In this document: piece after piece, positions 782 to 14,389 of the stretch
Numbering within the stretch: position 1 is the stretch's first letter
Layout: each line of letters opens with the position of its first letter
From: an uncultured archaeon
Lineage (GTDB): Archaea; Aenigmatarchaeota; Aenigmatarchaeia; PWEA01; JAGHBM01
Direction of reading: 5' to 3'
Length of the DNA stretch: 64,000 bases
Assembly (NCBI GenBank): GCA_964640225.1
Contig: CAZXFI010000001.1
Coordinates: 51,507-115,506, forward strand
Program-made: the position numbers and the translations under genes
Notes under the pieces: model-generated
Told to the model about the DNA's origin: nothing
The model's input: the letters and a program-made list of their open reading frames with translations, nothing else
The model's database searches: none

Positions 782-3034
782 ATGGTCTGCGAATACGAAC
801 TGGACAACGGCGTTCTCAAGGTCAACTGCCTGGGCTGCATTCACGGCGCAAGCGTGGAGGACTACGACGACTGCATGGCGAGGGTGGTTGACAAGGTAAT
901 AGAAAACAAGGGAGTTGAGAGCATAGTCCTTTCCAAGGAAAGGGAGTACGAATACAACAGGGAGCAGACCCAGATGATAGTTGAGCTGGCCGGAGCCCTC
1001 AAGGAGATAGTGAGAAACAAGGCCCTTCTCAACCCGCTTGAAGAGGGGGAATGCAAAAACGTAACAGACAAAAAAGCGGCCAGCCTCAGGAGGCTTATAC
1101 TCGGGAGGATGAGAAGCGATCCCATAGGAACTTACGTGGCACTGAAAAGAATGATAAGGCACACGAGAATAAGAATAAGCTCCCTCCCGGAAAAAAAGGC
1201 CCGGTGCAACGAGATTTTTCTTGAAAAGGTTCTTATCCCCATAAGGGGCATTTTTGAGGAGCTTGAAATCATAAAGAAGGTAAGGCCCTTCCTGGGAAAA
1301 TACAGGACCGGAGACCGCTCGGTATACAGGGAAATATTCCACCCCACGATAAAGCCCAAGTTCATGAGAACCAAGTACGTTTCCGTGCCCCCGGAAAAAA
1401 GCGAGATAGTGGACAGGTACGAGCTTCCAGGAAAGATACAGGTTGAGATATACAGGAAGCCCGACACGGTGCGCTGCTTTTACCACGTCACCCCCCCGGA
1501 ACTTAGGCTTTCCGAGGACAAGTACACCATCCTGGACGCTGCCATAAGGTACATGACCCAGCACAAGCCCAAGACAACTGAATTCGCCGAGCCCGATAAG
1601 ATGAGGGAGGTCTTCTCCAACATAGGAAGGGACCTGATAGCCGACATAACAGAGCAGATGGGGCTGCGGCTGTCCTCCCAGGACGTGGAGGAGCTCACCT
1701 CAATACTCGTACGATACACCTCGGGGCTGGGCATAATAGAGGTCATACTGGCGGACCAGAAGATCCAGGACGTTTACATAAACTCCCCCGCGGGAGAGCT
1801 CCCCATTTACCTTTACCACTCCGACTTCCAGGAATGCGAGACCAACCTGATTCCCACGCAGGAAGACGCGGAATACTGGGCCACCAGGTTCAGGATTCTT
1901 TCCGGCAGGCCCCTGGACGAGGCGAATCCCGTCCTGGACACGCAGGTTTCCGTTCCCGGAGGAAGCGCGAGGATAGCCGTGATAACCAGGAGCCTGTCAC
2001 CGGAGGGCCTGGGATTTGCCATAAGGAGGCACAGGGACCAACCCTGGACTTACCCGCTTTTCATTCAGCCCAGCGTGGGATATATGAGCCCGCTTTTCGC
2101 GGGATTCATGTCTTTCGTGATTGACGGAGCCCGGACATTCCTGATAGGAGGAACCAGGTCCTCGGGCAAGACCTCCCTGCTGAACGCCTCCCTGCTGGAG
2201 ATAATGAAGAAAAACAGGATAATCACGGTTGAGGACACGCTGGAACTCAGCGTGGAGAGGATGAAACAGCTGGGCTTCAACGTGGAGAGGCTGAAATCCC
2301 GCTCGGTGATAACGCAGGTTGAAACGGAGCTGCCCACCGAGGAAGCCATAAGGACCGCCCTCAGGCTCGGAGACTCTTGCCTTATTCTGGGGGAAGTCAG
2401 GTCAACTGAGGCCAAGGCGCTTTACGAGGCCATGAGAGTCGGAGCGCTGGCCAACACGGTCGCGGGCACCATACACGGGGAAAGCGCCTACGGGGTTTTT
2501 GACAGGGTCGTGAACGACCTTGAGGTGCCGGCCACCTCGTTCAAGGCGACCGATTTGATAGTGATATGCAACATGCTCAGGTCCCCGGACGGGCTTCACA
2601 ACTTCAGGAGGGTCGTGGCCGTCACCGAGGTAAGGAAGCACTGGAAGGACGACCCCGTAAGGGAGAACGGCTTCGTGAACCTCATGGAATACTCGGCCAA
2701 GGATGACGAACTGAAACCCACATCCACCTTCCTTAACGGGGAAAGCATGGTCCTTAACGACATAGCAAGAAAAGTCAGGGAATGGTCCGGGAACTGGGCG
2801 GCTGTATGGGAGAACATAGAGCTGAGGAGCAGGGTAAAGAAGACGATAACGGACACGGCCCTCAGGACGGGAAAGCTTGAGCTCATGGAGGCACCTTTCG
2901 TGGTAAGGTCAAACGAGAAGTTCCACATAATCTCGGACGAGGTCAAGAGGGAACTGGGCTCAATAGACGCTAACGTGGTCTATGAAAAGTGGAGCGGCTG
3001 GCTAAGGGAAGTAATAAAGAAGGAAAGATTCTAG
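782..3034 (+). CDS. Type II/IV secretion-family assembly ATPase (archaeal FlaI/PilB/GspE-VirB11 superfamily); ORF track starts at 728 but ATG 782 is preferred
   Basis: Walker A GGTRSSGKTSLLNA and Walker B-like CLILGEVRSTEA in a roughly 750 aa protein. A polytopic platform gene lies immediately downstream. A TATA-like TTTTTTATATTCC sits about 20 nt upstream of ATG 782, suggesting a leaderless start. Confidence 0.8.
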   Translation: MVCEYELDNGVLKVNCLGCIHGASVEDYDDCMARVVDKVIENKGVESIVLSKEREYEYNREQTQMIVELAGALKEIVRNKALLNPLEEGECKNVTDKKAASLRRLILGRMRSDPIGTYVALKRMIRHTRIRISSLPEKKARCNEIFLEKVLIPIRGIFEELEIIKKVRPFLGKYRTGDRSVYREIFHPTIKPKFMRTKYVSVPPEKSEIVDRYELPGKIQVEIYRKPDTVRCFYHVTPPELRLSEDKYTILDAAIRYMTQHKPKTTEFAEPDKMREVFSNIGRDLIADITEQMGLRLSSQDVEELTSILVRYTSGLGIIEVILADQKIQDVYINSPAGELPIYLYHSDFQECETNLIPTQEDAEYWATRFRILSGRPLDEANPVLDTQVSVPGGSARIAVITRSLSPEGLGFAIRRHRDQPWTYPLFIQPSVGYMSPLFAGFMSFVIDGARTFLIGGTRSSGKTSLLNASLLEIMKKNRIITVEDTLELSVERMKQLGFNVERLKSRSVITQVETELPTEEAIRTALRLGDSCLILGEVRSTEAKALYEAMRVGALANTVAGTIHGESAYGVFDRVVNDLEVPATSFKATDLIVICNMLRSPDGLHNFRRVVAVTEVRKHWKDDPVRENGFVNLMEYSAKDDELKPTSTFLNGESMVLNDIARKVREWSGNWAAVWENIELRSRVKKTITDTALRTGKLELMEAPFVVRSNEKFHIISDEVKRELGSIDANVVYEKWSGWLREVIKKERF

Positions 3035-3066: not shown

Positions 3067-5166
3067 ATGGCCAAGCCCCCGAAGAAGACAGAGGAAGACA
3101 TAAGAAGGGAGGAAATAAAGAAAATTCTCAGCGAGACAAGCCCGGAGTTCAAGCATCTTGCCGGGAGCAGAATAGAGACCCAGAGCAAGGAATACAAGGA
3201 GTTCAAGGAAGAAGAGATTGAAAAAAAGCTTTCTGTTTATGAAAAACTGTGCAACTTATCCGAGAAAATAGGTCTGGAACCGGATAAGGAAATGGCACGG
3301 AAAATGCAGGATGCCATAGATTTTGCGCACCTCAGGATTACACCGAAAGGGGCCTTTTCCTTTGCCATAGTGGCATGCGTCTCAATAATTTTCCTTACCA
3401 TAATCGGAACAATAACCGAGCTGGCCCTGACCGGAACCGCCAACGTAAACAATCTGCTAATATTCTTCGGTATTTCCATAGCCTCCCTGTTCGCGCTTAC
3501 AAAATACCCGGAATTCGTTGCCGACAACTTCAGGATAAAGGCCGCGCAGGAGATAATACTTGCCATAATTTACATGGTAATATACATGAGGACTTCGCCC
3601 CAGATGGAGGGGGCGGTAAGGTTCGCGGCCAAGAACCTCTCCGGCCCGCTGGCCTACGACCTGAGAAAGATACTTTGGGACGTGGAAACCAGAAGGTACG
3701 AGACAATTTACGACGCGATGACGGACTACCTGAAAGGGTGGGAAAAGAACAAGGAATTCATGGAGGCCATACAGCTCATAAGAACTAGCCTGGAGCAGCC
3801 CGAGGCCAAAAGGTACCAGATGCTGGACGAGGCAATAAACATAATACTTCAGGGGACCGAGGAGAAAATGAGACACTATTCGCAGTCTCTGAGGACTCCG
3901 GTGACCATAATATACGCGCTCGGGATAACGCTCCCCGTGCTCGTACTGGTTTTATTTCCCATCATCATGCTCATGCTGAGCGACACCATAAACCCGCTTT
4001 TCCTGGTAGTGGGCTATGACGTGGTGCTGCCGATATTGATATTCGTTATAAGCTACGAGATTCTCATGCGAAGGCCCATAGGATACAGTACGCCCGACAT
4101 AACGCTTCACCCCAAATATTCCCCGCTGGGAAAGCTCAAGCTGGTGCTAATGGGAAAGGAAAAGTTTATGCCGCTATGGCCCATGGGCGCCGCGGTGTCC
4201 GTACCCTTTGTTATTGCCGGGGTGCTGATAATGCTTTCGGACCCGTCTCCCGTGGGCTTCATCAACCTGGTCGGCTCCCTTGTCTTCGTGTGGGGCCTGG
4301 GAATAGGTTTTGCCGTGGTGTTCCTGATTGAAAGCAAGATGAAAATAGGCATCAGGAACCAGATAAAGAGCATACAGGACGAGTTCAGCGAGGCCCTGTT
4401 CCAGCTTGGCAACAGGCTGGCCCTGGGCAACCCCATGGAAAAGGCAATGGAGCAGACCATAGAAAAGGCTTCAAACCTGAAAATATCGGACCTTTTCAGG
4501 AAGGCCCTCCGCAACATAAAGAGAAGCAGCCTCCCGCTTGAGGCGGCGCTGTTTGACAGGAAAGTGGGGGCAATATGGGAATACCCATCCAAGCTCGTGA
4601 TAAACGTCATGAAAATACTCTTTGAGGCCACGAAAAAAGGCGTGAAGAACGCGGCACTGAGCGCCATATCAATATCCCGCTACGTCAAGCAGATACACAA
4701 CATAGAGGAAAGCCTGAAAGAGATGCTCAGCGAATCCACGGCAAGCATGAGGGTTCTGGGAATGTTCATCGCGCCCCTGATAGCCGGGGTAACTGTAACG
4801 ATGACAGCCATAATGATGATGATATTCAAGACTCTGGGAGAGCTCATGGGAACGCTTGAGATTACGGAAGGCAACACGGTCGGGGGAATGGGACTCCAGA
4901 ACCTCATGATAGGCTCCTGGGGAACAGTAGGAAACATACTGACAATAGGCGTTTTCCAGATAATCGTGGGTGTGTATATGATTGAAATCGGGTATCTGCT
5001 GGCCTACCTGGTCTCGGGAATAGACAACGGCCAGGGAGACCTTATTGGTAGGAGGGAACTGGCCGGGTACAACATTTTAATAGGACTGGCTGTATATACT
5101 CTTACAGTGCTTGTCACGTATTTCATATTCGCTCCCATGGTGGGAGTGCTCGTGGGCACAATGTAG
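3067..5166 (+). CDS. Polytopic membrane platform protein of archaeal type IV pilus/archaellum-like systems (FlaJ/TadC/GspF-like)
   Basis: 699 aa with multiple hydrophobic helices in N- and C-terminal blocks separated by a cytoplasmic domain, as in FlaJ/TadC. It is translationally coupled downstream of the secretion ATPase. Confidence 0.65.
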   Translation: MAKPPKKTEEDIRREEIKKILSETSPEFKHLAGSRIETQSKEYKEFKEEEIEKKLSVYEKLCNLSEKIGLEPDKEMARKMQDAIDFAHLRITPKGAFSFAIVACVSIIFLTIIGTITELALTGTANVNNLLIFFGISIASLFALTKYPEFVADNFRIKAAQEIILAIIYMVIYMRTSPQMEGAVRFAAKNLSGPLAYDLRKILWDVETRRYETIYDAMTDYLKGWEKNKEFMEAIQLIRTSLEQPEAKRYQMLDEAINIILQGTEEKMRHYSQSLRTPVTIIYALGITLPVLVLVLFPIIMLMLSDTINPLFLVVGYDVVLPILIFVISYEILMRRPIGYSTPDITLHPKYSPLGKLKLVLMGKEKFMPLWPMGAAVSVPFVIAGVLIMLSDPSPVGFINLVGSLVFVWGLGIGFAVVFLIESKMKIGIRNQIKSIQDEFSEALFQLGNRLALGNPMEKAMEQTIEKASNLKISDLFRKALRNIKRSSLPLEAALFDRKVGAIWEYPSKLVINVMKILFEATKKGVKNAALSAISISRYVKQIHNIEESLKEMLSESTASMRVLGMFIAPLIAGVTVTMTAIMMMIFKTLGELMGTLEITEGNTVGGMGLQNLMIGSWGTVGNILTIGVFQIIVGVYMIEIGYLLAYLVSGIDNGQGDLIGRRELAGYNILIGLAVYTLTVLVTYFIFAPMVGVLVGTM

Positions 5167-5174
5167 GTGTAAAA

Positions 5175-5288
5175 ATGAAAGGAATCTTGGGTTACGGGCT
5201 TTGGCAGACCATAGTGGCCGTCACGATAGGCCTTGCACTTGTGCTTTTCATAATAGCAATGTTCTACAACGTGTGGGGGGCGATATAA
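5175..5288 (+). CDS. Mini single-pass membrane peptide (37 aa), pilin-like N-terminus MKG-ILGYGLWQTIVAV
   Basis: ATG preceded by GGTGTAAAAATG. Sequence is MKGILGYGLWQTIVAVTIGLALVLFIIAMFYNVWGAI. Its stop overlaps the next start (TAATG). Confidence 0.45.
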   Translation: MKGILGYGLWQTIVAVTIGLALVLFIIAMFYNVWGAI

Positions 5289-5416
5289 TGGAGATGAGAA
5301 TCGTGATAACAATAGCGCTTTTCCTGGTGCTGTTCGTGGTGGCTCTCTTCATACTTGCGCCCAGCCTTTCGGCTTTTTTGGGGCATATCTCTGATATGGG
5401 TTTCACTCCTGAATAA
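5288..5416 (+). CDS. Mini single-pass membrane peptide (42 aa)
   Basis: MEMRIVITIALFLVLFVVALFILAPSLSAFLGHISDMGFTPE. Start overlaps the previous stop. Lies in frame within ORF 5111..5416. Confidence 0.4.
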   Translation: MEMRIVITIALFLVLFVVALFILAPSLSAFLGHISDMGFTPE

Positions 5417-5448
5417 TTTTATATTTAAAACAGGATATAATATTATTC

Positions 5449-5646
5449 ATGGACAAGAAGATGGCCGAAATAATATTTGTTATACTTGTTTTCCTGGTAG
5501 GCTTCATATTTTTCATAGCAATGTTCGGTGAAACTTTGGGAATAGGTACTATTTTCACAAAAATGTGGTGCTACGGGTACTGCGCCATGAAGATAACCAA
5601 TCCGTTGTGGGGCGGCGCAATTCCGGGAGGTTTTTGCGGATGCTGA
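5449..5646 (+). CDS. Small membrane peptide (65 aa) with C-terminal Cys/Gly-rich tail
   Basis: MDKKMAEIIFVILVFLVGFIFFIAMF followed by CYGYC and GGFCGC. ORF-track entry. Confidence 0.45.
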   Translation: MDKKMAEIIFVILVFLVGFIFFIAMFGETLGIGTIFTKMWCYGYCAMKITNPLWGGAIPGGFCGC

Positions 5647-5798
5647 AGGGGGTGTCGCACCTGATGTGGTTCGTGCTTGCCTTCGTGGTTATAGTGATAC
5701 TGATAGCAGTCAGCGTGCTTATACTCAATCAGGGGCAAGGCTATGCCCTGGGTGGCATAGAAGACATGATAAACAGCGTCAGTGACATGATAGGGTGA
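5640..5798 (+). CDS. Mini single-pass membrane peptide (52 aa), class III-like MLKG-VSHLMWFVLAF
   Basis: ATG overlaps the previous gene's stop (GGATGCTGA). KG followed by a roughly 25-residue hydrophobic helix. Confidence 0.45.
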   Translation: MLKGVSHLMWFVLAFVVIVILIAVSVLILNQGQGYALGGIEDMINSVSDMIG

Positions 5799-5802
5799 TT
5801 AT

Positions 5803-5970
5803 TTGAAAAAGGGATTTTCCGGCTTGCCTTCAATGGTTTACATAATAATAATACTGGTAGTGGCAGTCGCGGTGTTCTTTTTCATCTACATGAACGTGGA
5901 GGGCAACGCGGACAGCATATTTGATGCTATGAGGGACATTTTAAAGGGTATCCCTCCCGACTTGGGGTGA
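5803..5970 (+). CDS. Mini single-pass membrane peptide; probable TTG start (KKG-FSGLPSMVYIIIILVVAV), alternative ATG at 5833
   Basis: In-frame TTG AAA AAG GGA TTT begins 5 nt after the previous stop. K-K-G then a hydrophobic helix. Ends GIPPDLG. Confidence 0.35.
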   Translation: MKKGFSGLPSMVYIIIILVVAVAVFFFIYMNVEGNADSIFDAMRDILKGIPPDLG

Positions 5971-5998
5971 CTTTGTGGGATATCTAACGTGGCAGAGC

Positions 5999-6118
5999 AT
6001 GACAGGAAAAATATGGACAATCCTGCTGTTCGTCATCATCCTTATAATAATGTTCCTGATAATAACCGCCGTGGTGCCGGAAATGCAGCTGATAGCGGGA
6101 GTTTTTGAGGAGATGTGA
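5999..6118 (+). CDS. Mini single-pass membrane peptide (39 aa)
   Basis: MTGKIWTILLFVIILIIMFLIITAVVPEMQLIAGVFEEM. Stop lies 3 nt before the next gene's ATG (6122). Confidence 0.4.
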   Translation: MTGKIWTILLFVIILIIMFLIITAVVPEMQLIAGVFEEM

Positions 6119-6121
6119 AAA

Positions 6122-6904
6122 ATGGCGAAAGGCTCAATAGACAAAATACTTTCAATATTCATAGCAGCGGTCGTGATTCTTTTGATAGTTGCCGCTGCCT
6201 ACAACGTCATAAAAGGATTGGGAGCCCACATGGCCGAGTCTATATCAACCGGAAGTTCGGCTGAAGACATAGCAGACGCGGTGAACGACATCAACGAATG
6301 CATAGAGGAAAACGGCGAAGGCAGATGCACCGAGGAAATAACCCTGGATATAAGCGTGCCACAGGGGCTCGAAGACAGCGGAATGCCTTACGTAGGTGCG
6401 GACCCCCTGTGGGTAATTTACCACGACAAGTGCCTTTCAAACGATGATGATACGGGCTTGCCGGGAGAAAACGACGACTCCTGTGAAAACATAGGGGATG
6501 TGGAACCCCTGGTGAAGGAAAGTGACTGCGAGTGCCACAGTCTGTGGGACAGCGGAAAATTCGCGCCCAGGTGCGAGAACGACTTTTGCTGGGGAATGGT
6601 GGAAAACCAGGCTCCGGGAAGGTCGCAGGTAAACCCGAGAGCCCTGGAAAGGCTCCAGTCTTTCTACATAATAGACCCGTGCTACGCCAGAATCAAAGTG
6701 CGCGAGAACCCGGCCAATCCCGGGAAGATAGAGATATGCTTTGAAGAGCCTCTTGAACCTCCCGTGCCCGGCTACGCCAACTGGTGCTGCGCTGATCCAG
6801 ACAAGGTGGACTGTGCCTTGCAACCGCCCATGGGAAAAGAGTGGCCGTTTACTGCTAACGGGGTGTGGAATGGTCTGCAAACAGGCACCTGCCATAAATG
6901 CTAG
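6122..6904 (+). CDS. Secreted Cys-rich protein with archaeal class III (prepilin-like) signal peptide
   Basis: N-terminus MAKG-SIDKILSIFIAAVVILLIVAAAY (K-G-S then a hydrophobic helix). The remainder is hydrophilic with about 20 Cys. Confidence 0.55.
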   Translation: MAKGSIDKILSIFIAAVVILLIVAAAYNVIKGLGAHMAESISTGSSAEDIADAVNDINECIEENGEGRCTEEITLDISVPQGLEDSGMPYVGADPLWVIYHDKCLSNDDDTGLPGENDDSCENIGDVEPLVKESDCECHSLWDSGKFAPRCENDFCWGMVENQAPGRSQVNPRALERLQSFYIIDPCYARIKVRENPANPGKIEICFEEPLEPPVPGYANWCCADPDKVDCALQPPMGKEWPFTANGVWNGLQTGTCHKC

Positions 6905-6912
6905 TGATTTGA

Positions 6913-7353
6913 ATGCCCTCAACTGAATCCCTGATGGAGATGTTCGCGACTCTGATACTTTTCGCGCTGATAGCCATGCTACTTCTCACCGTTTTCGGCA
7001 AAACCGTGGGAGGAGGGGAAGTTCCCATGGGCCAGGCTTACCCGGTGACTCAGAAAATCGTGTTCAGGATTAACACAATGTCGGCGAGTCTGCAGAACGA
7101 GACAGCGATACTTAAGATAGACCCCTTCCAGTACAACATAACTTTTGACGTTAACAACAACTACGTGGAAAGCAAAGTCAAGTATTTCGGCGATACAAAG
7201 TACGGACTTTTCCTTTTTCCGGACATAAGCCTAATTGCCCCGGACTACATAGACTGTCCCCACGGCGAATGCCTGCCCAAGAACCTTGTCATAGAAAAGA
7301 AAGTTTATGAAGACGGTCCTGTTGAGATAACGGTCTGGGAGGAGATAATATGA
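6913..7353 (+). CDS. N-terminally membrane-anchored or pilin-like secreted protein
   Basis: N-terminal helix MFATLILFALIAMLLLTVFGKTV followed by a soluble domain containing a CPHGEC motif. Lies inside the pilin-like gene array. Confidence 0.45.
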   Translation: MPSTESLMEMFATLILFALIAMLLLTVFGKTVGGGEVPMGQAYPVTQKIVFRINTMSASLQNETAILKIDPFQYNITFDVNNNYVESKVKYFGDTKYGLFLFPDISLIAPDYIDCPHGECLPKNLVIEKKVYEDGPVEITVWEEII

Positions 7354-8132
7354 AAGGCTCCCTTTCAACAGCAGTAACTGCCGGGCTTATAATACTTTCC
7401 ATGATTTTCATTGTAATCTTGCTTTTTAGCACGGCCGAATTGACAGCGGAATCATACGCCAGCGCCACTCTTCAGATAAGCAAGTTTTCCGTGTTCCACA
7501 AGATAATGACCTCAAGGAACTGCGTGAGCACTGGGGAAACAGGCATACTCAACAAGACTCTTCTGGATGACGCAAACAACGGGGGAGAACTTGAATGCGC
7601 ATACCTGCCAGACTGCGCCCATTACGTGAGAGTGGACAACCTGAACAACGGGGAAAGCTGGGACTGGAAATTCGGCTACAAGGGCGACGGGGACTGGCAG
7701 GACTACATGGAGACTTACGTCTCTATAATGGACGGCAGCGACGTCATACCCGGGTTCGTGTCAATGAAGATAAACTGCAAGGACCCCGTGATAAACGAGG
7801 AGGAAGACAACTTCATAATATGCCTGACCGCGGCAGCGGAGAGGGCGTGGATAACGGGGGAACTGGAAAAGAAATGCAACATGGGGAGCGAGATTATGGC
7901 AGACAAACTAATAGACGTGGACTTTGACCCCGACAAGATATGCCTCAAGGACAGCGGAGGTGTGATAGAATGCAGAAACTTTTACCAGGCGGTTGCCGAC
8001 GACGTGACAAAGCAAAAAGGTAGCCAGAAAGACATGTGCACCGTGAAATATGTTAAAGTTGGTACAGAACTGATAATAGACGAGTTTGAATGCGAAAAAG
8101 GTAAATTTAACGGACTGGACGGAGTTGATTGA
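7350..8132 (+). CDS. Secreted Cys-rich protein with class III signal peptide (MKG-SLSTAVTAGLIILSMIF)
   Basis: K-G-S motif then a hydrophobic helix. A Cys-rich hydrophilic domain follows. The 4-nt start/stop overlap with the upstream gene indicates translational coupling. Confidence 0.55.
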   Translation: MKGSLSTAVTAGLIILSMIFIVILLFSTAELTAESYASATLQISKFSVFHKIMTSRNCVSTGETGILNKTLLDDANNGGELECAYLPDCAHYVRVDNLNNGESWDWKFGYKGDGDWQDYMETYVSIMDGSDVIPGFVSMKINCKDPVINEEEDNFIICLTAAAERAWITGELEKKCNMGSEIMADKLIDVDFDPDKICLKDSGGVIECRNFYQAVADDVTKQKGSQKDMCTVKYVKVGTELIIDEFECEKGKFNGLDGVD

Positions 8133-8580
8133 AATTAGGAAAGGTTTCGTGATACAGGTATTCACTCTGTTTTTCATAATAGGCCTTACGATGGGCATTT
8201 TCATAGCAGGCATCCTTATAGCTTCGGGCCACCTGAAGCTAATACTGGCCGTTGAAACCAATTTTGAAAGACCCTCCATGACGCAGATTTCCGCCAATTC
8301 TTTCATGAGAATGGAAAACAGCTACCCGGATCAGGGAAACGAGATGAGAAACATTATGTCCAACTTCAGGAACAGCGGCGACGACGCCGTTCTCAGGCAG
8401 GCCATAACAGATTCCATGGATGAGATGTTTGACGTGGTGGGGGACAGCAGCAACGTGATGGTGAAGGTGGGAGACCTTTACTTCAACAAGGGGCTTATGG
8501 GAGACCATGACACGGGCTTCGGGCTGGTTGCTTACCCTGAAGGCCAGGCGGAAAAAATACAGGTGAGGGTTTACAAATGA
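8086..8580 (+). CDS. Pilin-like secreted protein; the real start is probably TTG around 8128-8131, giving MIEIRKG-FVIQVFTLFFIIGL
   Basis: ATG 8086 overlaps the upstream gene by 47 nt. The in-frame sequence TTG ATT GAA ATT AGG AAA GGT TTC gives a canonical R-K-G-F class III motif just before the hydrophobic helix. Confidence 0.45.
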   Translation: MNAKKVNLTDWTELIEIRKGFVIQVFTLFFIIGLTMGIFIAGILIASGHLKLILAVETNFERPSMTQISANSFMRMENSYPDQGNEMRNIMSNFRNSGDDAVLRQAITDSMDEMFDVVGDSSNVMVKVGDLYFNKGLMGDHDTGFGLVAYPEGQAEKIQVRVYK

Positions 8581-10079
8581 CTGGTAGAAAAGGCATTGCC
8601 ATAGGAATAGCCCTTTTGATAGGATTTTTCTTGGCAATGGGAGGCATTCTCCTGGCAATACTCGGCTTCACGCTGGGCCTGACCCAGGCAATAACCATGG
8701 AAACTGCATACGACGCCAAAACCCTCATAGAGGACAAGCTCCATTTTGACTCGGAAAGGCACTACCTTGAGAACGGGCTCTGGGTCGCCGGGGCTTACGC
8801 CGCCTTCAAGAACGGGGAAAACGGGGGCATATACAACGACGGGTGGGACACCTGCTCCGGCTACGTTTGCTGGAGGGACCACGACGACCTGAAAATACCA
8901 CCGGAGAATCAGGTAACTGACGAGGTTTTTGAAAGAACCGACGACACCTTTCAGGATTATTTTTCAAACACGGAGTACACCGTGATGGAAGAAACTCCTT
9001 TGGGGGAGCCGGATATAACCCCGCTGGAAATGGAATACGACAGGCAGGAATTCAGTTTTTCCTACAGGATAGCCGAGCTGAACCTTTCCGGCGATTCATA
9101 CGACCAGTCGCACGAAATGAGGGAGAGACGCGTCTGGATTAACACCACAATTCCCATCAGGTACCTCAGCCTTTACGATGACGCCTCCGGCTTTGCCACG
9201 AACTCGCGCACAAGGCTCAACGACAAGGTAATAGACGCGCTGGACGACGTGACCGTGTGCAAGGGCCAGGGCCAGCTCACGCAGAGCGCCGCGCAGAACA
9301 AGATTCAGGACGCTCTTGACGGAATAGCGGGAGACGAAACAAACGGATTTGAGTGGGAACTGCAGCTGCTTCAGATAGACGACTTTGAGGAAGTACAGGG
9401 CCCGCCCAACCTGAGGTACAGGATAGTTTTCACGGTTCTCGTTACCGTGAGGGACAAGGAGGACGGAAGGAGGGTTCCGAACACCGACAGCGTGGAGAAG
9501 CTGGGAATTAGGTTTGCTTTGAAAGATGAGATAGTCTTTGATAGGGTTGTTTACCAGATATGCGACTGCGGGGTGGAGTGCACGGGCCAGTCCAAATGCC
9601 AGGGCGAGACCATACCCGCGGACACATGCGACGGTAGCGTCAGGGTGATATGGAGGGTTGAAGGGACCACCACGAGCGAGGCCCCGGGAGACTGCTCCTC
9701 CGGAGACGACTGCTACTGCGAGAAGAGGATTGAATGCGCTCCGGCACCTTGCTGCGTGGATGTTTGCTGCGCCGCGGGCGAGTCGTGCTGCGGAGGCACC
9801 ACCTGCTGTGGCAATGCCTGTTGTGGAGGGACGTGCTGTGGAGCAGGGGACTTCTGCTGTGACGACAAGTGCTGCAGCGGCGATTCCTGCTGCGGTACCA
9901 CGTGCTGCTCAAGCACCTGCTGCGACGGGAACTCGTGCTGCACGGACACGTGCATCGGCGGCTCCTGTGTGGACTGCGGAGGCTGCAGTTGCGCACCAAT
10001 GGGCCCGTGCCAGTTCGGTACATGCCCGCTTGCATGCTGCCCCGGCTGCATAGGAATATGCTGTGCCCCTGGGCCTTAA
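8577..10079 (+). CDS. Large secreted pilin-like protein (class III signal MTGRKG-IAIGIALLIGFF) with an extreme C-terminal CC-dipeptide repeat domain
   Basis: 500 aa. The C-terminal roughly 110 residues read CCVDVCCAAGESCCGGTTCCGNACCGGTCCGAGDFCCDDKCCSGDSCCGTTCCSSTCCDGNSCC. The DNA shows TGCTGC recurring about every 21 nt. Confidence 0.6.
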   Translation: MTGRKGIAIGIALLIGFFLAMGGILLAILGFTLGLTQAITMETAYDAKTLIEDKLHFDSERHYLENGLWVAGAYAAFKNGENGGIYNDGWDTCSGYVCWRDHDDLKIPPENQVTDEVFERTDDTFQDYFSNTEYTVMEETPLGEPDITPLEMEYDRQEFSFSYRIAELNLSGDSYDQSHEMRERRVWINTTIPIRYLSLYDDASGFATNSRTRLNDKVIDALDDVTVCKGQGQLTQSAAQNKIQDALDGIAGDETNGFEWELQLLQIDDFEEVQGPPNLRYRIVFTVLVTVRDKEDGRRVPNTDSVEKLGIRFALKDEIVFDRVVYQICDCGVECTGQSKCQGETIPADTCDGSVRVIWRVEGTTTSEAPGDCSSGDDCYCEKRIECAPAPCCVDVCCAAGESCCGGTTCCGNACCGGTCCGAGDFCCDDKCCSGDSCCGTTCCSSTCCDGNSCCTDTCIGGSCVDCGGCSCAPMGPCQFGTCPLACCPGCIGICCAPGP

Positions 10080-10095: not shown

Positions 10096-10683
10096 ATGAA
10101 AGGAGACATATCCCCGTGGGTCTTGATAACGATAATAATAGTCTTCATAGCCCTGGGAATCACGCTTGTCGCGCTTTACCAGGCCAGGCTCCAGGAGGGA
10201 GTAGATGAGGCCATAACGGAAACGGACATACCGGTTGCTGGTGACGATGAACTTTCAACTTGCACGGACAGCGACGGGGGCAGAAATTATTTTACCGAGG
10301 GCAGTGTTACCACGTACACGGAAACTTATGACGACGAATGTGACTCGGGGCAGGCCACGGAACACCTGTGCCTGACGGTCATGGACGAGGTAGACACGGT
10401 TACCTATGTTTGCCCCAACGGCTGCGACGGGAACGCATGCAGCGACACACCCCATGTACTAGACGAATGCGAGGACAGTGACGGGGGCAAAAACTACTTT
10501 GCCCAAGGCACGGTGACTCTGGGCCCGGAAATCTACCAGGACGAGTGCAAGCCTATAGGAGACCAGAGTGTCCTAGTGAAGGAATACTTCTGTGAAAAGG
10601 AGGAGGACAACCCGGTTGAAGTGAAGTATACCATTTACCAATGTCCTATTCTTTGTGAAGGAGGGGCTTGCTTAGAGGGTTGA
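10096..10683 (+). CDS. Secreted protein with class III signal (MKG-DISPWVLITIIIVFIAL) and two tandem Cys-containing repeats of about 60 aa with a C-[TE]-DSDGG-[RK]-NYF motif
   Basis: The repeats CTDSDGGRNYFTEG...CPNGCDGNAC and CEDSDGGKNYFAQG...CPILCEGGAC are visible in the translation. Confidence 0.55.
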   Translation: MKGDISPWVLITIIIVFIALGITLVALYQARLQEGVDEAITETDIPVAGDDELSTCTDSDGGRNYFTEGSVTTYTETYDDECDSGQATEHLCLTVMDEVDTVTYVCPNGCDGNACSDTPHVLDECEDSDGGKNYFAQGTVTLGPEIYQDECKPIGDQSVLVKEYFCEKEEDNPVEVKYTIYQCPILCEGGACLEG

Positions 10684-10687
10684 TAAA

Positions 10688-11068
10688 ATGAGTAAGGGAG
10701 TTTCATTCTGGGTCATGATAACCATAGTTGCCGTTCTTATACTGCTGGTGGTTATAGCTTCAGGACTGGTCAACCTCAACCCCCAGGGAAGGATAGATGA
10801 CACAATGGGAGAGGTTGAAATCAAAGGGGCATGCGACCATTTTCAATGCCCGCAGGGCTCTTGTTGCAAGGAAGGTGGGGGAACAGACTACCAGACCAGG
10901 CAGTGCATAAAGAACGACACGGAAAGCTTAAGAGACACCTGTACTGACGCCACCGGTGAGAGGCTTGGCTCAACCTACGTAAAGGAATATTATTGCGATG
11001 GGAATATCATAAGGGCAGACATACACTACTGCGGCACGAACAGTTGCATGAACGGAGCCTGCACCTGA
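10688..11068 (+). CDS. Small secreted Cys-rich protein with class III signal (MSKG-VSFWVMITIVAVLIL), related to the C-terminal repeat of the upstream gene
   Basis: KEYYCDGN...YCGTNSCMNGACT resembles KEYFCEKEED...YQCPILCEGGACLEG of 10096..10683. Confidence 0.5.
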   Translation: MSKGVSFWVMITIVAVLILLVVIASGLVNLNPQGRIDDTMGEVEIKGACDHFQCPQGSCCKEGGGTDYQTRQCIKNDTESLRDTCTDATGERLGSTYVKEYYCDGNIIRADIHYCGTNSCMNGACT

Positions 11069-11104
11069 TTGAGCAAGAATTTAAATGATTAAGATGAAAT
11101 CTTA

Positions 11105-12553
11105 TTGTGGTTAATGATGGCAAGCGTGATTTTCCGGATAATCGCCATAATAGCCGCTCTTATTGTTCTCAGCATAGCCATAATTTTCATGCTCGGCCTT
11201 CCGATGGAAGAATCGGCCGAGGTGCTTCGGCAGGAGCAGATTGACCAGCAGGTGGACAAATTGTGCCCCTCCTCCAGGCAGTCGCCTACCATGGTTTTTC
11301 TTCAGCTAAACGGCGACTGCGGGCGGTGTGAAAACCCCGGTCCGCCCCCCTGCAACCCGTTCTGCAACGACGCCTCAGCCTGGTACCAAGTCTGCCAAGA
11401 TGAAAGGCCCGACGGAGAGGTAACTGTGGCAGATTATTGGCAATGTGACGCTCCGGAGGGGGGTAGTTGTATGGTTACCAAGATATCATACTACCAGTGG
11501 GTATACAACGGATGCCGTTTATCAAGAATCAATCCCATACTTGGTTTCAACGATTACAGGATTTACAAGGGCACGGACCCCACGGGCGACCTGGACTTTG
11601 AAGAATGGGACAACTGCAGCGAAGGCTATGGAATGGGCTCCAGGTGGTGGGATTTATTCTGTGCCGATGACGAATGCAAATACATCTCAAGCGTGAGTCC
11701 AATCCTGGACAATAAAGGAGTTTACGGGGAGGGACAAGACTTGTATTTCTCTATAAATTTTGTCACTGCTATAAAAGACCCGTACGACAGACTGCTTAAT
11801 CCCGAATACGGCATCTGCGAGGGAACTGTCTGCAAAAGGCATGAAGAGGAGTTCCACCACTATGAACTGAAAGTAGCGGGAAGGTACTGCTGCCCTGAGG
11901 GCACGGAGTGGAACACGGACTTCCAGGCATGCTGCGGGGAGGATGACTGCGCGGACGCCGACTGCAGGGAAATCGGGGGCACCTGGCTCTACGGTGAATG
12001 CTGGTTCATGGGAAGCGGCGGGGAAAGCTGCAGCGAGGTTTGCGAGGACAAAAACGCGGTGTGCAAGAATCCGGATGACTGGGCGAGCGTGCCGAAAGAC
12101 TGCGCGCTTCACGAGGAGGTTTTCAAGGACATGGGACTTTATCCCGTGCCGTTTAACTGCACTTTTTGCCTTCAGAACATGCTGCCTCCGCCAGAATGGT
12201 ATTCCCCGTATTCAGGCTCCCTGACAAAATGCTATTACAAAAACAACGAGGCCCCGCCACCCTTTGACGATTACATGTGCGACGCGGTGGCTCCGGGAGG
12301 CAAGCCCAGAATCTGCGCCTGCGAGCCCCTTTGCCCCGGGCCGGACCTGAACGGCCGCGTTCCCGCTCCCAGTTATTTTGCCGGGACGTGCCAGGGCGGG
12401 TGCCACGGCGATTATTACTACCACACGGGCTATGGAAGGTGTTACTGGGACTACCTGGGGCACGCGGAAAACGACCCGTGGGGCGAATCATGCATATGGA
12501 GACATTCGGCGGACTGCGCCGAGGCCCAGTGCACGGCCGCGGGCTGCATCTGA
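11105..12553 (+). CDS. Large N-terminally anchored extracellular Cys-rich protein (paralog A)
   Basis: N-terminal helix IFRIIAIIAALIVLSIAIIFMLGL. About 40 Cys. Shares blocks with 12567..13976 (CCPEGTEWNTDFQACCGEDDC, GECWFMGSGGESCSEVCED, CALHEE, RICACEPLCPG). Confidence 0.55.
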   Translation: MWLMMASVIFRIIAIIAALIVLSIAIIFMLGLPMEESAEVLRQEQIDQQVDKLCPSSRQSPTMVFLQLNGDCGRCENPGPPPCNPFCNDASAWYQVCQDERPDGEVTVADYWQCDAPEGGSCMVTKISYYQWVYNGCRLSRINPILGFNDYRIYKGTDPTGDLDFEEWDNCSEGYGMGSRWWDLFCADDECKYISSVSPILDNKGVYGEGQDLYFSINFVTAIKDPYDRLLNPEYGICEGTVCKRHEEEFHHYELKVAGRYCCPEGTEWNTDFQACCGEDDCADADCREIGGTWLYGECWFMGSGGESCSEVCEDKNAVCKNPDDWASVPKDCALHEEVFKDMGLYPVPFNCTFCLQNMLPPPEWYSPYSGSLTKCYYKNNEAPPPFDDYMCDAVAPGGKPRICACEPLCPGPDLNGRVPAPSYFAGTCQGGCHGDYYYHTGYGRCYWDYLGHAENDPWGESCIWRHSADCAEAQCTAAGCI

Positions 12554-12566
12554 TGCGGTGAAAAAG

Positions 12567-13976
12567 ATGAGCAAGGAAAATTTTTTCGGTGTGTTGATAA
12601 CAATCGTGATAATGCTTTTGGTTCTCGTGATAATAACCGGAAGCCTGTCCAACGTGGACTCCCTGGGGAAGACAGACGAGGCCATGGAGCAGTCCATGGG
12701 GCTTGCCGACACCTTCAAGGTGCCCTACACCCTGTGCGGCGACGGAAGGATGTCCGGGGGCTACCAGAGGACCATTGACACCGCGGGCGAGGCTACCGTC
12801 TTTTTCAGGGAACTGAGCGGGACTTTTGACTGCTCCCTGGAAGGCACCGGCGAGGGGGAGTGCATAATATACGGGCTTTACAGGAGAGAGTGGTGCGCAG
12901 ACGGCGGGTTCCTTTGCGGGAACGGCAACGGGGAGAACATAGGCACCTACCAGTTCACCGTGGACTCAGGGGAACCGGAGCTTGCCCTTGACTTCACCCC
13001 GGAATGCGTGGACAACGTCAATGTCCAGGGCTGCTGCGTAAATCCGAAAAAGGGAGACGGAAGGGACTGGCTCTGCGACTGGTGGATTTACGAGTGGACT
13101 TATTACGGAGACAAGGGATTCCTCAACATAACCGTGGGAAACGGGGAAAGCGTGGATGTCTGGAGCAGGTTCGCCGACAAGTGGGAAGGAGGCGCGGTGG
13201 AGGACCCGCACAACTGCAGCTACGGGGGCGACATGTACCAGTTCCACAAGGAAAGCTACAAGTACAAGAATGGGGAGCTGGCCGTCAGATACGTAAAATG
13301 CTGTCCCAATGGTTACACGTGGAACGATAATTATAAAACATGCTGCTATGACGAGGCCTGCACCAACTACCTGTGCAGATACCCGGCCTTTTTCATGTTC
13401 GGGACCTGCTGGATGGTTAGCGAACCCGGGGAAAGCTGCGAGCAGGCCTGCCTGAGAACGGGAAAGACCTGCAGCCTTGAAGCGCTTGAGAACGCGATTT
13501 CTGAAGGCCTGGAAGACAACTGCGACCTGCACGCGGAGGCCGGCTACGCATGCGCAAACTGCAACGAGGCCACGGGATCGGAAAACACGCTTGCCCCGTA
13601 CTTTGACCCCCCCGGCGACTGCTACTATTACAGCGAGGCCGAGGCCGCGGCAAACCCGTTTGACTGCGGGACATCGGACCCGGGCCTGAACAGGATATGC
13701 CCCTGCAAGCTCACCGGAAAAACCGGTGAAGATTATAAATGCGACCATCTGGTCCACGAGCCCGGAACCTGCATGGACGAGGACGGGGGGCTTGTCTGGG
13801 ACGTGGCTGCCTGCGTGATAAACGACAGTTATTCGTGGAGGGACCAGTGCCATGACCCCGGCACGGGAGCCAGCGTGCCGGAGAGCAATACTTTAAGAGA
13901 GCATTTCTGCGGCTCCGGTGACGTTATAGGAACACAGCTCCATTCCTGTGCGTGCAGAGACGGGACCTGCGTCTAG
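12567..13976 (+). CDS. Large N-terminally anchored extracellular Cys-rich protein (paralog B); start taken at ATG 12567 rather than the 12378 track start
   Basis: MSKENFFGVLITIVIMLLVLVIITGSL helix. Shares blocks with paralog A (CCPNGYTWNDNYKTCCYDEAC, GTCWMVSEPGESCEQACLRTGKTC, CDLHAE, RICPCKLTG). The 12378 extension overlaps the upstream gene. Confidence 0.55.
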   Translation: MSKENFFGVLITIVIMLLVLVIITGSLSNVDSLGKTDEAMEQSMGLADTFKVPYTLCGDGRMSGGYQRTIDTAGEATVFFRELSGTFDCSLEGTGEGECIIYGLYRREWCADGGFLCGNGNGENIGTYQFTVDSGEPELALDFTPECVDNVNVQGCCVNPKKGDGRDWLCDWWIYEWTYYGDKGFLNITVGNGESVDVWSRFADKWEGGAVEDPHNCSYGGDMYQFHKESYKYKNGELAVRYVKCCPNGYTWNDNYKTCCYDEACTNYLCRYPAFFMFGTCWMVSEPGESCEQACLRTGKTCSLEALENAISEGLEDNCDLHAEAGYACANCNEATGSENTLAPYFDPPGDCYYYSEAEAAANPFDCGTSDPGLNRICPCKLTGKTGEDYKCDHLVHEPGTCMDEDGGLVWDVAACVINDSYSWRDQCHDPGTGASVPESNTLREHFCGSGDVIGTQLHSCACRDGTCV

Positions 13977-14017
13977 CCTGAAATTTATTTAAGCAAGTAC
14001 AATAATTAAGGGATAAC

Positions 14018-14389
14018 ATGAAAGGACTTTCCATTTCAACCAACGTCCTGGTGGCGCTGGCCATAGCGCTCATAGTGCTCCTGGCACTGGTTTCCATGCT
14101 CATGGGAATAGTCCCGGGAACCTCGGAGGCCCTGGGCTGCGAGGCCGACTTCCGGGTGCAGTGCAACAGGTTCATAGCCGCGGGAGGCTGCAAGGAGACT
14201 TCGGGGATGAGCATACTGGACGGATGTATCGGAGTTACGGATAACTGTCCCGGTGCTGAGGGCTACGACGAAGACTGCAGGTTCGTGAAATGCAGCACGG
14301 CAGACTGCGCCCTGGGAACGCTAATTGGAAGCGAAATAGAGGCGGCGTGCTGCGGAACCGAGACCACGACCACCACCGTGGGTCCCTGA
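14018..14389 (+). CDS. Small secreted Cys-rich protein with class III signal (MKG-LSISTNVLVALAIALIVLLAL) and C-terminal Thr run
   Basis: K-G-L motif plus a hydrophobic helix. 11 Cys. Ends TETTTTTVGP. Confidence 0.5.
   Translation: MKGLSISTNVLVALAIALIVLLALVSMLMGIVPGTSEALGCEADFRVQCNRFIAAGGCKETSGMSILDGCIGVTDNCPGAEGYDEDCRFVKCSTADCALGTLIGSEIEAACCGTETTTTTVGP

What the first reader, a model, noticed from the sequence alone, without database searches (positions are those of the whole stretch)
9750..10079. C-terminal domain made almost entirely of CC dipeptide repeats in a pilin-like secreted protein
The last roughly 110 residues of the 8577..10079 protein contain at least 13 Cys-Cys pairs spaced 3-5 residues apart, followed by CxxC and CC motifs to the C-terminus (roughly 35-40% Cys). 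At the DNA level TGCTGC recurs about every 21 nt. This generates spurious long antisense ORFs on both strands. Such density resembles keratin-associated proteins or metallothionein-like metal-binding domains. It is highly unusual on an archaeal surface protein. It could provide disulfide cross-linking of a filament or matrix, or metal binding.
Basis: seen in the sequence. Interest (0 to 1): 0.7.

Follow-up and report, generated by a model that had tools for sequence, protein, structure and literature searches.

The report
Cysteine-pair repeat tail on archaeal pilin-like protein
The run of twelve Cys-Cys pairs is real and in frame; it is the tail of a large pilin-like surface protein in a type IV pilus operon of a tiny DPANN archaeon, and is most likely an extreme, stripped-down version of a common disulfide-rich extracellular repeat, not a keratin- or metallothionein-type domain.

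Summary
ORF 8577..10079 (500 aa) is intact. Its last 109 residues contain 36 Cys (33%). Twelve Cys-Cys pairs lie 3-5 residues apart (aa 392-455, nt 9750-9941), and two more follow. The DNA units are 15/18/21 nt (mean 16.75, not 21) and only 62-79% alike, so assembly collapse is unlikely.

The protein has a class III (prepilin-type) signal, Lys-Gly followed by a hydrophobic helix. It sits in a conserved operon with a FlaI/PilB-type ATPase, a polytopic membrane protein and about 15 pilin-like genes. The closest named relatives are Aenigmatarchaeota.

The N-terminal ~330-aa domain defines a rare family: 20 clusters among 1.84 billion representatives. It has no Pfam hit and no solved structural relative. 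The C-terminal region is a swappable slot. One relative carries Stig1 repeats there, another an endostatin/DUF1554 module, and a third a module shared with a neighbouring pilin-like gene.

The window's tail starts like the Stig1-bearing relatives (C-1-C-5-C-4-CC-3-C) and follows the pattern C-x4-[CC-x3-5]12-C-x4-C-x2-C. Shorter versions of this pattern sit between Stig1 repeats in an unrelated protein.

Best reading (inferred): a disulfide-laddered, rod-like extracellular module on a minor pilin or adhesin. Metal binding and intermolecular cross-linking are not excluded.

The parts
728..3034 (+). FlaI/PilB/TadA-type secretion ATPase, the first gene of the operon. The real start is probably the internal Met of 'MVCEYELDNG...'. 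It has a short N-terminal extension with 4 Cys.
   Evidence: Pfam T2SSE 7.4e-17. NCBIfam archaellum FlaI 2.1e-39 and TadA 1.6e-32, both below the equivalog cut-offs.
3067..5166 (+). Polytopic membrane protein (699 aa) with roughly 8-9 hydrophobic segments. It is in the position of the TadC/FlaJ/PilC-type platform.
   Evidence: Hydropathy scan. 69% identical to the equivalent gene in L001. No Pfam or NCBIfam hit, so the platform assignment rests on position and topology only.
5175..6118 (+). Cluster of five or six very short ORFs (37-65 aa). Each is essentially one hydrophobic helix, and some have an MKG/MLKG start (mini-pilin-like).
   Evidence: Genes of similar size (38-65 aa) sit at the same position in L001/L002.
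6122..8580 (+). Four upstream pilin-like genes (6122..6904, 6913..7353, 7350..8132, 8086..8580). Three have a K-G motif followed by a hydrophobic helix; 6913..7353 has a hydrophobic N-terminus without that motif.
   Evidence: N-terminal sequences and Cys counts. Orthologues occur in the same order in L001, L005 and L006.
8577..10079 (+). The gene of the finding: a 500-aa pilin-like protein. Its ATG overlaps the stop of the upstream gene (ATGA), and its own stop is TAA at 10077-10079.
   Evidence: Homologues P0002, P0003 and P0005-P0021.
8577..8690 (+). Class III (prepilin-type) signal MTGRKG followed by the hydrophobic helix IAIGIALLIGFFLAMGGILLAILGF. Lys5 and Gly6 are present in at least 90% of the 20 aligned sequences.
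   Evidence: Alignments A1 and A4. AlphaFold predicts one long helix over aa 5-81.
8691..9560 (+). Conserved globular alpha/beta domain (to aa 328). It defines the family, has no Pfam model and has no solved structural relative.
9561..9737 (+). Cys-rich beta-strand junction (aa 329-387, 9 Cys). It contains the conserved motif C-[YF]-C-x5-C, which is shared by the close relatives.
   Evidence: AlphaFold pLDDT is 87-92 for aa 330-390.
9750..9941 (+). The Cys-Cys array: 12 x (CC + 3-5 residues), aa 392-455, 24 Cys in 64 residues. By my hand count about 79% of spacer residues are G/T/D/S/N, with no Pro, His, Trp or Tyr.
9951..10076 (+). C-terminal cap (aa 459-500): C-IGGS-C-VD-C, then CGGCSCAPMGPCQ...CC..C...CC-APGP. 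It is homologous to the C-terminus of P0003, and the family typically ends in a poly-Cys motif.
10096..14389 (+). Five downstream Cys-rich genes, most with a pilin-like N-terminus (10096..10683, 10688..11068, 11105..12553, about 12567..13976, 14018..14389). After them the archaeal proteasome/exosome gene block begins.
   Evidence: Housekeeping genes identified.

Best explanation
The CC array is the middle part of the C-terminal 'business end' of a large minor-pilin or adhesin-like subunit of a DPANN (probably Aenigmatarchaeota) type IV pilus-like system.

The protein would be exported and processed through its class III signal. It would be anchored in the filament or the membrane by its long N-terminal helix, and it would display its C-terminal region to the outside.

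In this protein family that region is a slot filled by different disulfide-rich or lectin-like extracellular modules. In the window's protein, a Stig1-like cysteine repeat has apparently been reduced to its CC-x3 core and iterated. The resulting single module is C-x4-[CC-x3-5]12-C-x4-C-x2-C, with 28 Cys.

I infer that it folds into a narrow rod of tight turns whose core is a continuous ladder of intramolecular disulfides. This would be comparable in principle to the stacked hairpins of granulin or the disulfide-filled beta-helix of the Tenebrio antifreeze protein. Such a rod would be rigid and protease-resistant, and would hold the conserved C-terminal cap away from the pilus for contact with a host cell or a surface.

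Shown: the anatomy, the export signal, the operon, the family, the modular tails and the shared Cys pattern. Inferred: the disulfide bonding, the rod shape and the adhesive role.
For: 1. Export and pilus context. The motif K5-G6 followed by a hydrophobic helix is nearly invariant in the family. The operon has a FlaI/PilB-type ATPase, a polytopic membrane protein and about 15 pilin-like genes. Gene order is conserved in L001, L003, L005 and L006. DPANN type IV pilus loci with unrecognisable 'dark matter' pilins are described in PMC6393860.

2. Exported proteins are selectively Cys-rich. Most pilin-like proteins have 3.8-9.6% Cys, against 0.3-1.3% in the ATPase, the membrane protein and the proteasome subunit. 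PMC4858521 interprets Cys-rich archaeal type IV pilus components as disulfide-stabilised.

3. The C-terminal slot is modular.
- P0007's tail is Stig1 (PF04885): 47 bits against a cut-off of 24.1.
- Another member carries Endostatin/DUF1554.
- P0002's tail is 39% identical (E 2e-17) to the C-terminus of the neighbouring window gene 11105..12553.

4. Positional homology. P0001, P0007 and P0008 share the same entry pattern, C-1-C-5-C-4-CC-3-C. P0001 and P0003 share the same exit, C-2-C-2-C-1-C-5-C with MGPC.

5. The same pattern occurs elsewhere. L011 is an unrelated 1459-aa protein with 13 Stig1 stretches (E 5.5e-40). Between those repeats it contains modules C-x5-[CC-x2-5]4-8-C-x4-C-x2-C. BLASTP of the tail against L011 gives 28.9 bits at a pairwise E of 9e-5, matching 'CAAGESCCGGTTCC' to 'CADGESCCEGGTTCC'.

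6. Cys parity. The protein has 48 Cys and the module as delimited has 28. Nine of the 11 family members with a delimited tail have an even total.

7. The spacers are made of small, turn-forming residues, as in disulfide-cored mini-folds. The granulin ladder is described in PMC4527844.
Against: - There is no structural evidence for the array. AlphaFold gives pLDDT of about 30 for aa 406-500.
- No disulfide-forming enzyme (thioredoxin-fold/DsbA-type or VKOR) and no prepilin peptidase was found among the window ORFs scanned. The rest of the genome is not available.
- DPANN archaea often live in anoxic habitats (own knowledge), where extracellular disulfides are less certain.
- The link to Stig1 rests on Cys patterns and one weak pairwise alignment in highly biased sequence. 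L011 was picked because it has CC arrays. The Stig1 HMM itself does not hit the window's protein.
- Parity is not universal. Three operon proteins and two family members among those with delimited tails have odd Cys counts.
Confidence: 0.5

Rival explanations
1. The array is an intermolecular cross-linker, working like keratin-associated proteins. Its many thiols would form disulfides between neighbouring subunits, filaments or host-surface proteins, hardening a pilus bundle, a matrix or the symbiont-host junction.
For: Cys density (33-37.5%) and CC-based short repeats match the composition of KRTAP/EDCRP cross-linkers, which reach 36% Cys with CCDPCQ repeats (PMC4423139). Most pilin-like proteins of the operon are Cys-rich, and three have odd Cys counts. 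Family members end in an exposed poly-Cys terminus, CCC(C)-x1-4, which could make an intermolecular bond.
Against: No sequence relationship to KAPs was found. The spacers lack the Pro/Gln/Ser/Arg character of KAP repeats. The strict even CC pattern, bracketed by single Cys residues, and its occurrence inside ordinary Stig1-type modular proteins fit closed intramodule bonding better. There is only one copy per operon of a 500-aa subunit, which is unlikely to be the bulk filament component.
Confidence: 0.2
2. The array is a thiolate metal- or mineral-binding domain, working like metallothionein. In an anoxic habitat the Cys residues would stay reduced and bind Zn, Cu, Ni, Fe or Fe-S, or attach the cell to metal-sulfide surfaces.
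For: The tail has 33% Cys, no His/Trp/Tyr and only two Phe, and it has CxxC/CxC/CC motifs in the last 42 residues. No oxidative-folding gene was seen in the window. DPANN habitats are often anoxic (own knowledge).
Against: The array has no CxC or CxxC, which are the dominant metallothionein motifs (own knowledge). There is no HMM match to any metal-binding family at E<=10. Homologous positions in relatives carry classic extracellular disulfide modules (Stig1) or lectin-like domains. Adjacent Cys residues chelate a single ion poorly (own knowledge).
Confidence: 0.15
3. The array is an artefact or functionless low-complexity sequence: an assembly chimera, a frameshifted or decaying gene end, or a neutral slippage product.
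For: AlphaFold gives no confident fold. The array is found in only one genome. Read depth could not be inspected.
Against: There is no DNA-level repeat that could collapse. The identical protein comes from two sources. The frame is kept through the array into a C-terminal cap homologous to P0003. All 24 Cys are kept as exact pairs while the DNA units have diverged to 62-79% identity, which implies selection on the Cys pattern.
Confidence: 0.05

Closest known systems
Stig1-like cysteine-rich repeats (Pfam PF04885), as found in the tail of family member P0007 and in the L011 protein
   Same: It occupies the same position in the protein family and has the same entry pattern (C-x4-CC-x3-C). It has the same CxxGxCxxC-type exit. 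CC-x2-5 arrays sit between bona fide Stig1 repeats in L011. Both are extracellular and Cys-dominated.
   Different: The window's tail lacks the C-x9-C-x2-C-x3-C part of each Stig1 repeat (D..NCG.CG..C) and does not score with the HMM. Twelve consecutive CC units exceed anything seen in L011, where the maximum is 8.
Granulin/epithelin module (12 Cys: C-C-CC-CC-CC-CC-C-C; four stacked beta-hairpins pinned by six disulfides; PMC4527844)
   Same: Central CC pairs are bracketed by single Cys residues and the total is even. It offers a plausible mechanistic model for a laddered disulfide stack.
   Different: No sequence or HMM relationship. Spacers are 3-5 residues rather than 5-8. There are 12 CC pairs rather than 4. 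The single Cys residues are arranged 1+3, not 2+2. No structure is available here.
Ultra-high-sulfur keratin-associated proteins and avian EDCRP (PMC4423139)
   Same: About 35% Cys, and short repeats that start with CC.
   Different: Those are eukaryotic, intracellular, cornified-cell matrix proteins. Their repeats are Pro/Gln/Lys/Ser-rich (CCDPCQ..), they show DNA-level repeat-number variation, and they act by intermolecular cross-linking. There is no homology.
Metallothioneins
   Same: About 30% Cys and almost no aromatic residues or His.
   Different: Metallothioneins are small cytosolic proteins dominated by CxC/CxxC motifs (own knowledge). Here the domain is the exported tail of a 500-aa protein with pure CC units. 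There is no HMM match.
Large minor pilins or adhesins of archaeal type IV pilus loci (Makarova et al. 2016, PMC4858521; DPANN 'dark matter' pilins, PMC6393860)
   Same: Class III signal; location in a locus with an ATPase and a platform-like membrane protein; many Cys presumed to form disulfides; fast evolution (26-50% identity against 69-81% for the neighbouring membrane protein and proteasome subunit).
   Different: The N-terminal domain belongs to no described pilin family and matches no solved pilin fold. The CC array itself is not described in those papers, as far as I searched them.
Tenebrio molitor antifreeze protein beta-helix (own knowledge, not tested)
   Same: Composition dominated by C/T/S/G/A/N/D; short repeats; a core made of disulfides.
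   Different: That protein has a 12-residue repeat with two separated Cys, not CC. No sequence match was found in the PDB search.

Membership tests
Archaeal type IV pilin-like proteins (class III signal peptide) | Short charged N-terminus ending in [KR]-[GA], followed by about 20 or more hydrophobic residues (a prepilin peptidase site) | tested here: met
   The sequence is MTGRKG followed by IAIGIALLIGFFLAMGGILLAILGF. K5 and G6 are present in at least 90% of the 20 family sequences aligned.
Archaeal type IV pilin-like proteins (class III signal peptide) | Encoded in a locus with a FlaI/PilB-type ATPase and a TadC/FlaJ-type platform | tested here: inconclusive
   The ATPase is present (T2SSE 7.4e-17; FlaI model 2.1e-39). 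The adjacent 699-aa polytopic protein has the right position and topology but no T2SSF or other HMM hit.
Archaeal type IV pilin-like proteins (class III signal peptide) | Match to a curated pilin model or to a solved pilin fold | tested here: not met
   [not shown]
Archaeal type IV pilin-like proteins (class III signal peptide) | Cleavage by a prepilin peptidase and incorporation into a filament | not testable with these tools
   No peptidase A24 gene was found among the window ORFs scanned. The rest of the genome was not available.
Stig1 (PF04885) | HMM score above the gathering threshold (24.1 bits) | tested here: not met
   No hit for the window protein or its tail, even at E<=10. The threshold is met by family member P0007 (47 bits) and by L011 (136 bits).
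Stig1 (PF04885) | Repeat pattern CC-x3-C-x9-C-x2-C-x3-C (D..NCG.CG..C) | tested here: not met
   Only the first element, C-x4-CC-x3-C, is shared. The rest of the repeat is absent.
Keratin-associated proteins / EDCRP | HMM or sequence similarity, and CC-x-P-x-type Pro/Gln/Ser-rich repeats | tested here: not met
   No Pfam hit at E<=10. The spacers contain no Pro or Gln. The consensus CCDPCQ is given in PMC4423139.
Metallothionein | CxC/CxxC-dominated Cys clusters in a small protein, and an HMM match | tested here: not met
   The array contains no CxC or CxxC. No HMM match. The domain is the tail of a 500-aa exported protein.
Metallothionein | Stoichiometric metal-thiolate clusters | not testable with these tools
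   This needs biochemistry.
Granulin (PF00396) | 12-Cys motif C-C-CC-CC-CC-CC-C-C with 5-8-residue spacers, and an HMM match | tested here: not met
   The pattern here is C-x4-(CC-x3-5)12-C-x4-C-x2-C. No HMM match.

The most novel reading that the evidence does not exclude
The 12-unit CC array may be a fold not yet seen. One possibility is a single continuous ladder of about 14 disulfides, a 'super-granulin' rod. The other is a reduced poly-thiolate strip that binds metals, Fe-S or sulfide minerals. Either would be displayed on a pilus of an ultra-small symbiotic archaeon, giving it an exceptionally rigid or metal-reactive attachment organ.
Probability: 0.15. Interest if true: 0.7.

Novelty: new variant of a known kind. 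Interest (0 to 1): 0.4.

Why it matters
DPANN archaea depend on physical contact with hosts, and their surface and pilus proteins are almost entirely unannotated. This locus gives three things.

- A concrete, conserved operon with a previously undescribed large pilin-like family: 20 clusters among 1.84 billion representatives, with a confidently predicted but unmatched fold.
- Evidence that the C-terminus of that family is a module-swapping, fast-evolving contact surface.
- An extreme natural example of how far a disulfide-rich repeat can be reduced. CC plus three to five small residues, repeated 12 times, is of interest for protein design and for understanding oxidative folding outside archaeal cells.

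It does not reveal a new biological principle, and the function is inferred.

Tried and rejected
- **Tail-only homology searches.** None returned anything usable: Pfam at E<=10, PDB sequences (only a chance TEX101 match at E 0.66), and the 5.8-billion-protein index (only 9 candidates, not even the protein itself). Low-complexity handling makes these negatives weak.
- **Profile search of the word-indexed database with 17 family members.** It was swamped by Cys-rich words and added only P0006.
- **AlphaFold with 3 sequences.** The model was useless (pLDDT 38). With 20 sequences the N-terminal 400 residues became confident, but the tail did not.
- **Viral-contig DNA pattern scan.** The other in-frame hits were perfect simple repeats, and most matches were not in-frame CC arrays at all.
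- **Disulfide machinery and prepilin peptidase.** Neither was found in the window.
- **Population variation.** The two pairs of near-identical loci (L001/L002 and L006/L007) have identical genes, so they are uninformative.
- **Literature.** Searches for cysteine-rich DPANN pilins or the Stig1 structure found nothing specific.
- **Rejected ideas.**
  - A DNA tandem repeat or assembly collapse.
  - Real antisense genes: the sense frame is conserved across homologues.
  - A relationship to the HdrB 'CCG' domain: only the tripeptide is shared, by inspection and from memory of the domain's spacing; no dedicated test was run.
Full report
**1. Observation**

ORF 8577..10079 (+) is an intact 500-codon frame. 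Its ATG overlaps the stop of the upstream gene, and it ends in TAA.

It contains 48 Cys. Residues 1-330 hold 4, residues 331-391 hold 8, and residues 392-500 hold 36 of 109 (33%).

Fourteen Cys-Cys pairs are present. Twelve form a strictly regular array at aa 392-455 (nt 9750-9941): CC VDV / CC AAGES / CC GGTT / CC GNA / CC GGT / CC GAGDF / CC DDK / CC SGDS / CC GTT / CC SST / CC DGNS / CC. That is 24 Cys in 64 residues, every one in an exact pair, with spacers of 3-5 residues. The last 42 residues carry CxxC, CxC and two more CC.

Chance does not explain this. None of 200,000 shuffles of the 64-residue array reached 12 exact pairs; the maximum was 11 and the mean 3.6. For the whole tail, 5 of 200,000 shuffles reached 14. 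The three-unit DNA pattern occurs nine times in the window, all within 9750-9941, against 0 expected.

- The DNA period is 15, 18 or 21 nt (mean 16.75), not about 21.
- Cys is 33% of the tail and 37.5% of the array.
- The array is not a DNA tandem repeat. Tandem Repeats Finder finds nothing, and the best internal repeats are 19-31 nt at 62-79% identity.

Collapse or expansion during assembly is therefore unlikely. Two further points support the sequence. The same protein sequence is held by two sources, NCBI and Logan. The frame continues through the array into a C-terminal cap that aligns with a homologue.

**2. Context**

The window is archaeal. Downstream lie genes for proteasome alpha, SBDS, exosome Rrp4/Rrp41/Rrp42, prefoldin, HerA, Rad50/Mre11, ProRS, RNase P p30, L15e, Nre and Trm1.

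The operon is laid out as follows:
- The gene lies in a same-strand run that starts with a FlaI/PilB/TadA-type ATPase at 728..3034.
- Next is a 699-aa polytopic membrane protein in the platform position at 3067..5166. It has no HMM hit.
- Five or six tiny one-helix ORFs follow at 5175..6118.
- Then come about ten larger genes up to 14389. Most begin with a short N-terminus, Lys-Gly and a hydrophobic helix, which is the class III (prepilin) signal.

Most of these exported proteins have 3.8-9.6% Cys. The ATPase, the membrane protein and the proteasome subunit have 0.3-1.3%.

The same gene order is found in four other metagenomic loci. One is from a Candidatus Aenigmatarchaeota MAG, and one protein is named 'Candidatus Aenigmarchaeota archaeon' by its source.

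Between the window and L001, the membrane protein is 69% identical and proteasome alpha 81%. The pilin-like proteins are only 26-50% identical. These are fast-evolving surface genes. DPANN type IV pilus loci full of unrecognisable pilins have been described (PMC6393860). Cys-rich archaeal type IV pilus components presumed to be disulfide-stabilised have also been described (PMC4858521).

**3. The protein family**

The word-indexed 5.8-billion-protein search found only two homologues. A profile of the N-terminal 330 residues, run against 1.84 billion cluster representatives, found 20 clusters.

Lys5 and Gly6 are nearly invariant across the family. No Pfam or NCBIfam model matches the N-terminal domain.

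**4. The tail in the light of the family**

All close relatives have Cys-rich tails (15-26% Cys), but the tails differ from one another:
- P0007 carries bona fide Stig1 repeats (PF04885, 47 bits against a cut-off of 24.1).
- Another member carries an Endostatin/DUF1554 module.
- P0002's tail is 39% identical (E 2e-17) to the C-terminus of a different pilin-like gene of the window, 11105..12553.

The C-terminal region is therefore a slot into which extracellular modules are swapped.

Written as Cys patterns, P0001, P0007 and P0008 leave the conserved junction in the same way, C-1-C-5-C-4-CC-3-C. In P0007 and P0008 the Stig1 repeat then continues as C-9-C-2-C-3-C. In P0001 only CC-x3-5 is iterated, twelve times. 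P0001 then closes with C-4-C-2-C and a cap (C-2-C-1-C-5-C, 'MGPC', terminal CC) that is shared with P0003.

A scan of viral contigs for the DNA pattern turned up one informative case, L011. It encodes a protein of at least 1459 aa with 281 Cys and 13 Stig1 stretches (E 5.5e-40). Between the Stig1 repeats sit modules of the form C-x5-[CC-x2-5]4-8-C-x4-C-x2-C, which is the pattern of the window's tail. BLASTP of the tail against L011 gives 28.9 bits at a pairwise E of 9e-5, matching 'CAAGESCCGGTTCC' to 'CADGESCCEGGTTCC'.

This link is suggestive, not proven. The sequence is highly biased, L011 was selected because it has CC arrays, and the Stig1 HMM does not score the window's protein.

**5. Mechanism**

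Several features favour a closed, intramolecular disulfide framework:
- The array is bracketed by single Cys residues, and the module as I delimit it (aa 387-467) holds an even 28 Cys.
- Nine of the 11 family members with delimited tails have an even Cys total, as does this protein with 48.
- By my hand count about 79% of spacer residues are G/T/D/S/N, with no Pro, His, Trp or Tyr.
- The array sits among classic extracellular disulfide modules.

The best structural analogue is the granulin stack of hairpins pinned by a disulfide ladder (PMC4527844). From my own knowledge, disulfide-cored beta-helices such as the Tenebrio antifreeze protein are also comparable.

I therefore propose a rigid, protease-resistant rod that presents the conserved C-terminal cap on a minor pilin or adhesin. 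Confidence is about 0.5.

The rivals are:
- KAP-like intermolecular cross-linking (0.2). It is favoured by the exposed poly-Cys termini of the family and by some odd Cys counts.
- Thiolate metal or mineral binding (0.15). It is favoured by probable anoxic habitats and by the absence of an oxidoreductase in the window. It is disfavoured by the lack of CxC/CxxC in the array and by the nature of the homologous modules.
- Artefact or junk (0.05).

**6. Comparison and novelty**

The tail is not a member of the keratin-associated, metallothionein, granulin or Stig1 families by any test I could run. It works most like, and probably derives from, Stig1-type disulfide repeats.

The whole protein is best filed as a new family of large pilin-like or adhesin subunits in DPANN type IV pilus loci. 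The CC array is a new, extreme variant of a known kind of domain.

Interest is moderate. The feature is real, striking and unique among the family tails I examined. However, Cys-rich modular tails are the norm in this family, and the function is inferred.

Noticed in passing
window 5175..6118 (+): There are five or six very short ORFs (37-65 aa), each little more than one hydrophobic helix, and some start with MKG or MLKG. They lie between the membrane-protein gene and the large pilin-like genes. Genes of 38-65 aa sit at the same place in L001/L002. They could be unusually small pilins or assembly factors.
   Followed up: partly
window 11105..12553 (aa 374-481) and P0002 (aa 356-464): The C-terminal Cys/aromatic-rich module of this neighbouring pilin-like gene is 39% identical (E 2e-17) to the tail of P0002, which is an orthologue of the 500-aa protein in another genome. 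This indicates that C-terminal modules are shuffled between different pilin-like genes of the operon.
   Followed up: yes
window 10096..10683 (+); also L006 3750..4337 and 4771..6087: A Cys-rich module, 'C.DSDGG.NYF..G.V....Y.D.C....EY.C....Y.CP.GC.GNAC', is present twice in the 195-aa pilin-like protein and again in a larger neighbour in L006. It has no Pfam or NCBIfam hit.
   Followed up: no
C-termini of P0003, P0005, P0008, P0014 and the L006 ORF 2057..3730; window 10059..10076: Six of the 11 family members with delimited tails end in a poly-Cys run followed by 1-4 residues: CCCFP, CCCAP, CCCCI, CCCIT and CCCCPI, with CCAPGP in the window. This is a conserved terminal feature of unknown role. 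It might be an intermolecular disulfide or an attachment site.
   Followed up: partly
L011 1080..5456 (+) (IMGVR_UViG_3300034105_004893, 165-kb contig): This is an open frame of 1459 aa with 281 Cys, 13 Stig1 stretches and interspersed CC arrays, on a contig filed as viral. Whether the contig is really viral was not examined.
   Followed up: partly
window 728..3034 (+), N-terminus: The secretion ATPase has an N-terminal extension with four Cys (MVCEYELDNGVLKVNCLGCIH...DDC). It recalls the variable Cys-rich N-terminal domains reported for some archaeal type IV pilus ATPases (PMC4858521).
   Followed up: no
[not shown]
   Followed up: partly
window 12378..13976 (+): The listed ORF overlaps the end of 11105..12553. 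The real start is probably the Met at 12567 (MSKENFFGVLITIVIMLL...), which gives a pilin-like N-terminus.
   Followed up: partly
window 31678..33468 (-) and 38495..40768 (+): There are two further probable surface proteins in the window. One has FG-GAP repeats and the other has a Beta_propel domain (E 3.9e-167).
   Followed up: no
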